This document shows positions 37,581 through 38,006 of a DNA stretch of 64,000 nt, piece after piece. The notes beneath the pieces are model-generated. The model saw nothing but the letters and a program-made list of their open reading frames with translations. It was not told the origin of the DNA and did not search any database. Position 1 is the stretch's first letter. Each line of letters opens with the position of its first letter. A program made the position numbers and the translations under genes. Location: the NCBI RefSeq assembly GCF_988242995.1, contig NZ_OZ547043.1. One strand, written 5' to 3'.

Positions 37581-38006
37581 ATGACGGCACAAATATCAGC
37601 TTACGGGCGGCTGGTGGCTGACCCGCAGTTAAAAACCACCAGCAAGGGAACACCAATGGCGCTGGTGAGTATGGCTGTTCCCCTTCCGTGCAGCCAGGCA
37701 GATGACGGAACAGCGACGATGTGGTTATCCGTCCTGGCGTTTGGCAGACAGGCCGATGCACTGGCAAAACACCAGAAAGGCGAACTGGTGAGCGTGGCGG
37801 GTAACATGCAGATAAGCCAGTGGACAGACCAGAACGGGGAAATGCGGCAGGGCTGGCAGGTCATCGCAGACAGCGTAATCAGTGCGCGAACCGTGCGACC
37901 TGGAGGCAGGAAAGGACAGCAAGGGCAGGCTACTGACGCACTGAACAGGGCAAAGCAGCAGACGGGCCAGCAGGATGACCCGTATGAGGACGAAATACCA
38001 TTTTAA
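37581..38006 (+). CDS. SSB-like single-stranded DNA-binding protein (OB fold)
   Basis: 141-aa ORF; segment WLSVLAFGRQADALAKHQKGELVSVAGNMQISQWTDQNGEMRQ aligns by eye with E. coli SSB [43 protein letters not shown]. Confidence 0.65.
   Translation: MTAQISAYGRLVADPQLKTTSKGTPMALVSMAVPLPCSQADDGTATMWLSVLAFGRQADALAKHQKGELVSVAGNMQISQWTDQNGEMRQGWQVIADSVISARTVRPGGRKGQQGQATDALNRAKQQTGQQDDPYEDEIPF

What the first reader, a model, noticed from the sequence alone, without database searches (positions are those of the whole stretch)
37581..38006. Island-encoded SSB-like protein
The 141-aa product aligns by eye with the OB-fold core of E. coli SSB (W..V..FG..A.......KG..V...G......WTDQ.G..R) but lacks the acidic C-terminal tail (DDDIPF) that recruits host replication proteins; here the C-terminus ends DDPYEDEIPF, a possible divergent variant. 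A private SSB on a small island suggests autonomous replication, or possibly interference with helper-phage or host DNA metabolism.
Basis: partly seen in the sequence, partly recalled or inferred. Interest (0 to 1): 0.5.

Follow-up and report, generated by a model that had tools for sequence, protein, structure and literature searches.

The report
Phage-satellite island's own SSB gene
The 141-residue ORF is a genuine single-stranded-DNA-binding protein with the usual C-terminal docking tail, sitting beside the replication origin of a small E. coli phage-satellite island, and it is an already annotated, ordinary part of such islands.

Summary
The ORF at 37581-38006 (+) exists as described and is a bona fide bacterial-type SSB. 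It scores 61 bits against Pfam SSB (cut-off 26) and 66.6 against TIGR00621 (cut-off 53.95). An AlphaFold model gives a confident OB fold for residues 1-103, and its top 50 PDB matches are all SSBs.

The protein ends DDPYEDEIPF, which aligns with the DFDDDIPF of E. coli SSB. A D-x-I-P-F end is conserved across the family and under purifying selection.

The gene lies in an 8.75-kb Gram-negative PICI-type satellite next to tRNA-Pro. The island carries int, alpA, P4-type CI RNA immunity, a DUF927 primase-helicase, an iteron origin and a phiP27-like cos site. SSB is the first gene after the origin.

In 80 of 83 related loci the SSB follows the replication initiator, although three unrelated initiator types and several downstream modules are swapped around it. 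The other three loci lack upstream sequence.

RefSeq already names it SSB in 984 of 5426 complete E. coli genomes. A 2023 paper already lists SSB among PICI replication genes.

Most likely it coats unwound satellite DNA and recruits the host replisome. Interference with the helper phage is untested. Low novelty.

The parts
37581..38006 (+). SSB gene (141 aa plus stop)
   Evidence: ORF. Pfam SSB 61 bits, TIGR00621 66.6 bits, phrog_44. The 100% identical DNA in E. coli LH13-b is annotated WP_105997177.1 'single-stranded DNA-binding protein'.
37581..37889 (+). OB-fold ssDNA-binding domain (residues 1-103)
   Evidence: AlphaFold2 block pLDDT is 73-93 across the domain, lowest (73-76) in residues 31-50. 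Topology is b1-b2-b3-helix-b4-b5. The Foldseek top 50 PDB hits are all bacterial SSBs, best 7ym1_B at E=4e-10. W48, F54 and W81 align with EcSSB W54, F60 and W88.
37890..37973 (+). Short basic linker (residues 104-131), predicted disordered apart from a weak helix at 115-127
   Evidence: pLDDT is below 50. Net charge of residues 102-131 is +5. The sequence is conserved, with pooled dN/dS of 0.11.
37974..38003 (+). Acidic C-terminal tip DDPYEDEIPF (residues 132-141)
   Evidence: It aligns with EcSSB ...DFDDDIPF and Thermus ...EEELPF. Of 60 distinct gene versions from the related loci, 57 encode a protein ending IPF. D137 is invariant and F141 nearly invariant in alignment A1.
37369..37505 (.). 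Origin-like iteron cluster: 2 copies of GGGACA[AG]GT on the - strand, an AT-rich spacer, then 4 copies on the + strand
   Evidence: All 11 copies of this 9-mer in the 64-kb window fall in this cluster or the second one. The architecture matches published GN-PICI origins (PMC6092414). The iteron word covaries with initiator type across loci.
35209..37344 (+). DUF927 primase-helicase (replication initiator)
   Evidence: Pfam DUF927 158.8 bits, phrog_1139 'DNA primase' E=1e-166, weak match to the SCCmec Cch helicase.
34925..35212 (+). DUF4222 gene, always just upstream of the initiator
   Evidence: Pfam DUF4222 85 bits. Present upstream of the initiator in nearly all related loci.
34287..34475 (+). 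P4-type RNA immunity region: isrK-like element plus C4/CI antisense RNA
   Evidence: Rfam C4 76 bits (gathering score 45) at 34388-34475. isrK 47 bits (gathering score 50, just below threshold) at 34287-34363.
32184..33428 (+). Tyrosine integrase
   Evidence: Pfam Phage_integrase, Arm-DNA-bind_3 and Phage_int_M; NF007246 557 bits.
33692..33883 (+). AlpA-family regulator/excisionase
   Evidence: Pfam Phage_AlpA 28 bits against a gathering score of 21.
38042..38578 (+). ProQ/FinO-family gene, interrupted in this window by a stop codon at 38210-38212
   Evidence: Pfam ProQ 88 bits on the part from 38219. The window has a stop where LH13-b has Trp.
38575..38859 (+). PerC-family regulator
   Evidence: Pfam PerC 111.5 bits.
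39662..39777 (.). Second cluster of the same iterons: 3 copies on the - strand, an AT-rich spacer, then 2 copies on the + strand
   Evidence: A distal cluster with the same layout occurs in 13 other DUF927-type loci.
39855..39900 (+). cos-like site
   Evidence: 91% identity over 46 nt to the annotated cos region of phage phiP27.
32097..32121 (+). Left copy of the flanking direct repeat (attL-like)
   Evidence: The pattern has 2 matches in the window against 0 expected by chance.
40824..40848 (+). Right copy of the flanking direct repeat (attR-like)
   Evidence: It lies between the island and the yejO gene.

Best explanation
The gene encodes a functional bacterial-type SSB that belongs to the replication module of a Gram-negative phage-inducible chromosomal island (PICI-type satellite) inserted beside tRNA-Pro.

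Proposed sequence of events:
- On induction, the rightward operon (alpA ... DUF4222, DUF927 primase-helicase, ssb) is transcribed.
- The initiator binds the iterons just downstream of its own gene and opens the AT-rich spacer.
- The island's SSB, made from the next gene, coats the exposed single strands through its OB fold, probably as a tetramer.
- Its ...D-x-I-P-F-COOH tip docks host replisome and repair proteins, such as the chi subunit of the Pol III clamp loader and PriA, as the E. coli SSB tip does.
- A private supply keeps satellite replication going while the host SSB pool is being consumed by helper-phage replication and DNA damage.

Shown here: family membership, fold, tail, position next to the origin, conservation and purifying selection. 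Inferred: ssDNA binding, oligomeric state, tail partners, co-transcription and the benefit to the island.
For: - Family and fold: Pfam, TIGRFAM and PHROG matches above curated cut-offs. The AlphaFold OB fold is confident, and all top-50 PDB fold matches are SSBs.
- Residues and tail: three of the four EcSSB DNA-stacking aromatics are conserved, and the tails align. The tip is conserved as D-x-IPF.
- Selection: pooled dN/dS is 0.10 for the OB domain, 0.11 for the linker and 0.18 for the tip.
- Position: the gene starts 236 nt after the initiator's stop codon, and that gap is filled by the iteron origin. The simple scan found no promoter-like or + strand terminator-like site between initiator and ssb.
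- Synteny: in 83 related loci the SSB lies just downstream of the initiator in 80. The initiator is a P4-alpha-like primase in 33, DUF927 in 25 and a RepA-like helicase in 22. The other 3 loci lack upstream sequence. Iteron words covary with initiator type, which confirms the intervening DNA is the cognate origin.
- More distant relatives (50-56% identity) also sit in small elements. P0128 follows a large unannotated gene and precedes PerC. P0130 lies in a ~9.6-kb element with an integrase and an AAA_25 helicase.
- Literature: GN-PICI origins lie 3' of pri/rep, and the EcCICFT073 replicon is functional (PMC6092414). SSB is already placed in the 'Replication' category of GN-PICIs (PMC10111431).
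- From memory, not verified here: in vitro P4 replication was reported to need only the alpha protein plus host SSB, gyrase and Pol III holoenzyme (Diaz-Orejas et al., NAR 1994). That would make SSB one of the few accessory factors worth carrying.
Against: - No experiment on this protein or any close relative was found in the searchable literature.
- The EcCICFT073 pri-ori fragment replicated a plasmid as described, without any mention of an SSB, so the island SSB is probably not essential.
- The SSB stays 88-92% identical while three unrelated initiators are exchanged. It is therefore not a dedicated partner of the DUF927 protein.
- Most family members have a less acidic tip (PYGDNIPF) than EcSSB, so the set of partners may differ.
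- W40 is absent and the L23 loop is shorter.
- The locus counts come from the 80 best IMG/VR matches. These are closely related and partly redundant, so they are not independent events.
Confidence: 0.75

Rival explanations
1. Interference or competition. The island SSB acts mainly against the helper phage or host. It could out-compete host or helper SSB on ssDNA, or soak up SSB-tip-binding proteins, and so slow helper replication or recombination in favour of the satellite.
For: - The lineage is specific to small integrative elements. No phage record has a relative above 33% identity, and only about 10 of 72,556 plasmid records have one at 54% identity or more.
- The usual family tip (PYGDNIPF) is less acidic than EcSSB's, and the linker is unusually conserved and basic. 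That could mean an altered partner set.
- PICIs are known to interfere with their helpers (PMC6092414, PMC6739421).
Against: - Known GN-PICI interference acts on packaging (Rpp/TerS, PMC6739421), not on replication.
- The gene's fixed place between origin and downstream modules is what a replication gene would show.
- No PADLOC defence model matches.
- One E. coli PICI was reported to aid, not hinder, helper replication (title of PMC11773190). That paper does not mention SSB.
Confidence: 0.1
2. Moonlighting or accessory role unrelated to fork progression. Examples would be a cofactor for excision or integration, or protection of satellite DNA from host nucleases or defence systems on entry.
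For: There is precedent that a phage SSB (a T4 gp32-like OB-fold protein, not this family) doubles as the directionality factor of phage TG1's serine integrase (PMC11795197). The conserved linker motif ATDALNRAK has no explained function.
Against: The island already has an AlpA-type excisionase/regulator. The integrase here is a tyrosine recombinase and is swapped between islands while the SSB stays. A cos-packaged satellite enters as double-stranded DNA.
Confidence: 0.07
3. Decaying or non-functional passenger: a gene fragment left by recombination with a phage or plasmid.
For: The neighbouring ProQ/FinO gene carries a premature stop in this window. An 'ash' pseudogene is annotated in the island.
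Against: The gene is full-length and intact in 887 complete E. coli genomes. dN/dS is about 0.11 over the whole gene, including the terminal tip. The tail is conserved to the last residue.
Confidence: 0.03

Closest known systems
E. coli chromosomal SSB (P0AGE0; PDB 1eqq, 1eyg)
   Same: Same family (PF00436/TIGR00621) and same three-part plan: OB fold, disordered linker, acidic tip ending I-P-F. W54, F60 and W88 equivalents are present, and the WTDQxG motif is shared.
   Different: Only 24% identical. It is 141 aa against 178. The linker is 30 residues and basic (+5), against 56 residues that are Gly/Gln/Pro-rich and nearly uncharged. There is no W40 equivalent, the L23 loop is shorter, and Leu replaces His55. 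It is encoded on a mobile island rather than at the uvrA-ssb locus.
SSB family listed in the replication category of Gram-negative PICIs and helper-embedded PICIs (Mageeney et al. 2023, PMC10111431)
   Same: The same kind of element (int, alpA, primase, origin) and the same placement of SSB beside the primase and origin. C4/isrK RNA immunity hits are also reported there. Locus L002, from O157:H7, is an island of this kind inserted in a prophage terminase gene and carries an 88% identical SSB.
   Different: That paper only bins the gene by its Pfam name. It gives no analysis of the protein, its tail or its function. The identity of their family with this one is inferred from the shared Pfam name and context, not checked sequence by sequence.
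EcCICFT073-type GN-PICI replicon (Fillol-Salom et al. 2018, PMC6092414)
   Same: Unidirectional int-alpA-pri organisation. The origin has two iteron sets flanking an AT-rich region immediately 3' of the initiator. The island carries a cos site and a PerC-like gene.
   Different: That paper does not mention an SSB (0 occurrences). The initiator here is a DUF927 protein, and this island has a second iteron cluster 2.3 kb downstream.
Satellite phage P4
   Same: CI/C4-type RNA immunity, icd-like and ash-like genes, a self-sufficient primase-helicase initiator, and two separated iteron sites reminiscent of P4 ori and crr. Sister islands with an alpha-like primase use CTGTTCAC iterons. From memory, that word overlaps the P4 TGTTCACC iteron.
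   Different: No sid, psu or delta homologue was seen among the ORFs scanned. P4 itself carries no SSB (from memory). The initiator here is DUF927 rather than P4 alpha.
Plasmid SSBs of conjugative plasmids (F-type ssb in the leading region)
   Same: An extra SSB copy carried by a mobile element, with a canonical tip.
   Different: From memory, the plasmid proteins are close relatives of EcSSB. This lineage is only 24% identical to EcSSB and is almost absent from 72,556 plasmid records. It sits in a replication module, not a conjugative leading region.

Membership tests
Bacterial-type SSB (Pfam PF00436 / NCBIfam TIGR00621) | Profile match above the curated threshold | tested here: met
   PF00436 61.1 bits against 26. 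TIGR00621 66.6 bits against 53.95. phrog_44 E=3.7e-39.
Bacterial-type SSB (Pfam PF00436 / NCBIfam TIGR00621) | OB-fold barrel with a helix between strands 3 and 4 | tested here: met
   The AlphaFold2 model has strands at 2-11, 16-19, 25-35 and 45-54, a helix at 55-62, and strands at 69-82 and 88-101. Block pLDDT is 73-93. The Foldseek top 50 PDB hits are all SSBs, TM(target) 0.64-0.79.
Bacterial-type SSB (Pfam PF00436 / NCBIfam TIGR00621) | Aromatic residues that stack on ssDNA (EcSSB W40, W54, F60, W88) | tested here: inconclusive
   W48, F54 and W81 align with W54, F60 and W88. All three are invariant in the family. The W40 position is Gln39, in a shortened loop. From memory, W40 is not universal among SSBs.
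Bacterial-type SSB (Pfam PF00436 / NCBIfam TIGR00621) | Intrinsically disordered linker after the OB domain | tested here: met
   Residues 104-141 have pLDDT below 50. The linker is shorter (30 aa) and basic, with a conserved ATDALNRAK stretch.
Bacterial-type SSB (Pfam PF00436 / NCBIfam TIGR00621) | Acidic C-terminal tip ending in a hydrophobic [I/L]-P-F carboxy-terminus | tested here: met
   The protein ends EDEIPF. This aligns with DDDIPF of EcSSB and EEELPF of Thermus SSB. IPF ends 57 of 60 distinct relatives from the related loci.
Bacterial-type SSB (Pfam PF00436 / NCBIfam TIGR00621) | Homotetramer (or equivalent four-OB assembly) and cooperative ssDNA binding | not testable with these tools
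   Needs SEC-MALS or ultracentrifugation and binding assays. The EcSSB interface residue His55 is Leu49 here.
Gram-negative PICI (phage-inducible chromosomal island) | Co-oriented int, alpA and primase/replication initiator genes | tested here: met
   int 32184-33428, alpA 33692-33883 and DUF927 primase-helicase 35209-37344 are all on the + strand.
Gram-negative PICI (phage-inducible chromosomal island) | Origin immediately 3' of the initiator: two iteron sets flanking an AT-rich region | tested here: met
   Six copies of GGGACA[AG]GT lie at 37369-37505, two on the - strand and four on the +, around an AT-rich spacer. This 9-mer occurs nowhere else in the 64 kb except in the second cluster. 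The definition is from PMC6092414.
Gram-negative PICI (phage-inducible chromosomal island) | Small size, specific attachment site with flanking direct repeats | tested here: met
   A 25-nt repeat (22/25 identical) lies at 32097-32121 and 40824-40848, giving 8.75 kb between tRNA-Pro and yejO. The same site is used in other strains.
Gram-negative PICI (phage-inducible chromosomal island) | Means of hijacking helper packaging (helper cos/pac site, or terS/capsid genes) without a full set of phage structural and lysis genes | tested here: met
   There is a 46-nt match (91%) to the phiP27 cos region at 39855-39900. The only structural-type gene is one PmgG-like ORF.
Gram-negative PICI (phage-inducible chromosomal island) | Induction, replication and high-frequency transfer dependent on a helper phage | not testable with these tools
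   Needs induction and transduction experiments. The helper is unknown; the cos match suggests a phiP27-like phage.
P4-like satellite | CI/C4-type RNA immunity with icd/ash-type genes | tested here: met
   Rfam C4 76 bits (gathering score 45). isrK 47 bits (gathering score 50). RefSeq annotates 'ash family' and 'Icd-like' genes in the identical island.
P4-like satellite | Capsid-size and late-control genes sid, psu and delta, and a P4 alpha primase | tested here: not met
   The ten island ORFs scanned gave no such Pfam, NCBIfam or PHROG hit. The initiator is a DUF927 protein. Small unscanned ORFs cannot be excluded.
Conjugative-plasmid SSB (F ssb type) | Close similarity to chromosomal EcSSB and location on conjugative plasmids | tested here: not met
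   24% identity to EcSSB. 1152 of 1153 E. coli matches are chromosomal. Only about 10 of 72,556 plasmid records reach 54% identity or more.

The most novel reading that the evidence does not exclude
The enterobacterial satellite SSB is a specialised lineage rather than a spare copy of a housekeeping protein. Its conserved basic/helical linker (ARTVRPGGRK...ATDALNRAK), as strongly constrained as the OB fold, and its less acidic tip would give it a distinct partner set. That could let satellites with any of three unrelated initiators capture the host replisome in preference to the helper phage, or starve the helper of it. The second iteron cluster downstream would then act with the origin as a P4 ori/crr-like pair bracketing the ssb block.
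Probability: 0.12. Interest if true: 0.5.

Novelty: already known. Interest (0 to 1): 0.18.

Why it matters
As it stands, this is a correct but routine annotation. The protein is already named SSB by NCBI's pipeline in about 18% of complete E. coli genomes, and SSB has been listed among PICI replication genes.

Its modest value is descriptive. It shows that the SSB, with an intact host-docking tail, is the constant piece of the enterobacterial satellite replication module, while initiators, origins, integrases and packaging or cargo modules are exchanged around it. No one appears to have tested what it contributes.

If it proved necessary for satellite replication under helper infection, or selective in its partners, it would add a replication-level layer to satellite-helper-host competition. 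That competition is so far understood mainly at the packaging step.

Tried and rejected
- Defence-system membership: PADLOC models found nothing for the SSB or eight neighbouring ORFs.
- Phage origin: tblastn against 50,697 phage records gave only distant SSBs at 33% identity or less. The gene is not a recent capture from a sequenced phage.
- Plasmid origin: only a handful of plasmid records carry relatives, one of them a mis-filed 4.9-Mb chromosome.
- Own promoter or terminator: the simple consensus scan found no promoter-like site and no + strand terminator-like site between the initiator gene and ssb. This scan is weak evidence.
- LexA box upstream, as at E. coli ssb: none seen by eye in 37345-37580.
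- Literature: searches for an experimental study of a PICI or P4-like SSB found only the bioinformatic binning in PMC10111431. The search for the P4 in-vitro replication paper failed, so that point rests on memory.
- Pseudogene idea: rejected on dN/dS and intactness.
- tRNA as the exact attachment site: the repeat lies about 120 nt downstream of tRNA-Pro, not within it.

Full report
**1. The observation**

The window has an ATG-to-TAA ORF at 37581-38006 on the + strand.

The likeness to SSB is not a by-eye coincidence:
- Pfam SSB (PF00436) scores 61.1 bits against a gathering score of 26, over residues 4-99.
- NCBIfam TIGR00621 scores 66.6 bits against its cut-off of 53.95.
- PHROG 44 ('single strand DNA binding protein') gives E=3.7e-39 over the whole length.
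- A sequence search of the PDB returns 26 distinct sequences, all named SSB.

I checked my copy of the E. coli SSB sequence against PDB 1eqq_A and it is identical over 178 of 178 residues. BLASTP of the island protein against it gives 24% identity from residue 9 to the last residue.
- W48, F54 and W81 fall on EcSSB W54, F60 and W88, and WTDQxG is shared.
- EcSSB W40 corresponds to Gln39, in a loop that is five residues shorter.

An AlphaFold2 model built on a 31-sequence family alignment gives the classic SSB topology for residues 1-103, with block pLDDT of 73-93. Residues 104-141 have pLDDT below 50. Its 50 best Foldseek matches in the PDB are all bacterial SSBs.

**2. The tail**

The second reading is right.
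- The last ten residues have net charge -5 and end I-P-F.
- They align with ...DFDDDIPF of EcSSB and ...EEELPF of Thermus SSB.
- Among the 120 closest database relatives, the commonest endings are PYGDNIPF (47), PYGDGIPF (17) and PYEDEIPF (8).
- Among 60 distinct gene versions taken from related loci, 57 encode a protein ending IPF.
- D137 is invariant and F141 nearly invariant in the family alignment.

Pooled pairwise Nei-Gojobori dN/dS is 0.10 for the OB domain, 0.11 for the linker and 0.18 for the tip. This is pooled over non-independent pairs, so it is a rough figure.

The middle of the protein is what departs from EcSSB. The linker is 30 residues against 56. It is basic (+5), and it contains a conserved ARTVRPGGRK...ATDALNRAK stretch in place of Gly/Gln/Pro repeats.

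**3. The island**

The gene sits in an 8.75-kb insertion between tRNA-Pro(GGG) (31901-31977) and yejO. The insertion is bounded by a 25-nt direct repeat at 32097-32121 and 40824-40848, with 2 matches against 0 expected by chance.

Reading rightward, all on the + strand, the island contains:
- a tyrosine integrase;
- an AlpA-family regulator;
- an ash/icd-like region holding a C4/CI antisense RNA (76 bits, gathering score 45) preceded by an isrK-like element (47 bits, just under its gathering score of 50);
- a DUF4222 gene;
- a 711-aa DUF927 protein that matches PHROG 'DNA primase' at E=1e-166;
- the SSB;
- a ProQ/FinO-family gene;
- a PerC-family gene.

The 236 nt between the initiator's stop codon and the ssb start codon hold two copies of GGGACA[AG]GT on the minus strand, an AT-rich spacer, and four copies on the plus strand. 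All 11 copies of this 9-mer in the 64-kb window lie in this cluster or in a second, similarly built cluster at 39662-39777. This is the layout published for Gram-negative PICI origins: two iteron sets flanking an AT-rich region, immediately 3' of the replication gene. The EcCICFT073 pri-ori segment was shown to replicate a plasmid (PMC6092414).

At 39855-39900 there is a 46-nt, 91% match to the annotated cos region of phage phiP27. The element is therefore a cos-type PICI satellite with P4-like RNA immunity. No sid, psu or delta homologue was seen among the ORFs scanned, so I do not file it as a P4-like satellite in the strict sense.

**4. The SSB in related elements**

Megablast finds the ssb gene in 984 of 5426 complete E. 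coli genomes, at 1152 chromosomal places and one plasmid place, with up to six copies per genome. Everywhere it is annotated 'single-stranded DNA-binding protein'. The copy in strain LH13-b is 100% identical.

I fetched 80 IMG/VR loci and 3 further E. coli loci and mapped reference proteins onto them.
- In 80 of 83 loci the SSB lies just downstream of the replication initiator. The other three lack upstream sequence.
- The initiator is of three unrelated kinds: a P4-alpha-like 'DNA primase family' protein (33 loci), DUF927 (25) and a RepA-like helicase (22).
- What follows the SSB also varies: major capsid, head decoration and TerS genes (29), ProQ/FinO (26), PerC (11) or a ClpP-capsid fusion (10).
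- Integrases vary as well.
- The SSB stays 88-92% identical in 82 of the 83 loci and 68% in the most divergent one (L004).
- The most repeated 8-mer between initiator and SSB tracks the initiator type: CTGTTCAC for the alpha-like primases, AAAGTGGG for RepA-like helicases, and AACCCGCA or GGGACAA(G/C) for DUF927. This is what one expects of cognate origins.

These loci are the best 80 matches and are partly redundant, so the counts describe loci, not independent events.

Outside this tight group, an exhaustive profile search finds 358 clusters at E of 1e-10 or better. Many are short SSBs of 130-150 aa starting MTAQ..YGRL, and many end FDDxIPF or FDDELPF. Two of three sampled contexts were again small elements:
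- P0130 lies in a ~9.6-kb element with an integrase, an AAA_25 helicase and Dam. The element is assembled as a concatemer.
- P0128 follows a large unannotated gene and precedes PerC.

The third contig was too short to judge. No sequenced phage has a relative above 33% identity. Only about ten of 72,556 plasmid records reach 54%.

**5. How it most likely works**

The best-supported reading is the plain one.
- After induction the rightward operon is expressed.
- The initiator melts the origin next to its own gene.
- The island's SSB coats the exposed strands.
- Its tip recruits host proteins that recognise the SSB C-terminus.

The fold, the tail, the position and the selection pattern are shown. 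DNA binding, tetramer formation, tail partners and co-transcription are inferred. The simple scan found no promoter or + strand terminator between the two genes, but that is weak evidence.

Because the same SSB serves three unrelated initiators, its partners are more likely generic (ssDNA and host proteins) than a particular island primase. The EcCICFT073 pri-ori segment replicated a plasmid without mention of any SSB, so the island copy is probably an enhancer rather than a requirement.

From memory only, since the paper could not be retrieved: P4 replication in vitro needs the alpha protein plus host SSB, gyrase and Pol III holoenzyme. That would explain why SSB is worth carrying.

**6. Rivals**

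- Helper or host interference is possible but has no support beyond the lineage's specificity to small elements and its somewhat different linker and tip. Known GN-PICI interference acts on packaging (PMC6739421), and PADLOC finds nothing.
- A moonlighting role has a precedent in phage TG1, whose gp32-like SSB, from a different family, doubles as the directionality factor of its serine integrase (PMC11795197). Here an AlpA excisionase is present, and the integrases are swapped independently of the SSB.
- A decaying passenger gene is excluded by its intactness in 887 genomes and a dN/dS of about 0.11.

**7. Novelty**

The protein is already annotated correctly in RefSeq. Mageeney et al. [quoted passage not shown] No functional study of a PICI SSB was found.

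I therefore rate the finding as already known and of low interest. Two small unexplained points remain, the constrained linker motif and the second iteron cluster, and they carry the residual novelty.

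Noticed in passing
window 39662-39777 (compare 37369-37505): A second cluster of the same GGGACA[AG]GT iterons (three on the - strand, an AT-rich spacer, two on the +) lies 2.3 kb downstream of the origin, so the two clusters bracket ssb-proQ-perC. A distal cluster with the same layout recurs in 13 other DUF927-type loci (for example L005, L011, L012, L014), but not in islands with the other initiator types. It resembles the ori/crr pair of phage P4. The PICI papers read here do not describe it.
   Followed up: partly
window 39855-39900: A 46-nt stretch is 91% identical to the annotated cos region of Stx phage phiP27, just upstream of that phage's terS. This suggests a cos-type satellite with a phiP27-like helper.
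   Followed up: partly
window 38210-38212: The ProQ/FinO-family ORF (38042-38578) has a stop codon where strain LH13-b has Trp57. Only the ProQ domain, from the ATG at 38219, could still be made. The rest of the island is otherwise essentially identical to LH13-b.
   Followed up: yes
window 34287-34475: A P4-type RNA immunity module is present: C4/CI antisense RNA (Rfam 76 bits) preceded by an isrK-like element (47 bits, just below the gathering score). It lies inside the ash/icd-like region upstream of the replication genes.
   Followed up: partly
window 39932-40700 (ORF 40088-40684): A PmgG-like 'head morphogenesis' ORF (phrog_1114, E=9e-60; 71% nucleotide identity to P1-like phage D6) sits at the right end of the island. 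In the listed close relatives that share about 90% of the island, including LH10-b-1, homology stops at 39931. The segment is therefore variable cargo or an indel. None of the 80 IMG/VR loci has it.
   Followed up: partly
loci L002-L084, region between initiator and SSB: The commonest 8-mer in the origin region covaries with initiator type: CTGTTCAC with alpha-like primases, AAAGTGGG with RepA-like helicases, and AACCCGCA or GGGACAA(G/C) with DUF927. Most non-DUF927 islands also have an 80-90-aa hypothetical ORF overlapping the ssb start, which this island lacks.
   Followed up: partly
window 37890-37973 (SSB residues 104-131): The SSB linker is as constrained as the OB fold (dN/dS 0.11). It is basic and contains a conserved ATDALNRAK stretch that AlphaFold draws as a low-confidence helix. 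A 136-aa family variant replaces it with an unrelated linker. Its function is unknown.
   Followed up: partly
L002 (E. coli O157:H7 F3113, NZ_CP038374.1 2558411-2576833): An SSB-bearing island of this family lies between the two halves of a prophage large-terminase gene. This is the 'helper-embedded PICI' configuration described in PMC10111431.
   Followed up: no
L086 (ENA ERZ21861969 ctg18587c): A metagenomic contig repeats the same ~9.6-kb gene set twice: integrase, AAA_25 helicase, Dam methylase and an SSB 56% identical to this one. This looks like a small circular or concatemeric element.
   Followed up: no
window 41024-43615 (- strand): The neighbouring autotransporter gene yejO is an intact 863-aa ORF here. 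In another strain (L003) RefSeq annotates the corresponding autotransporter gene as a frameshifted, truncated pseudogene.
   Followed up: no
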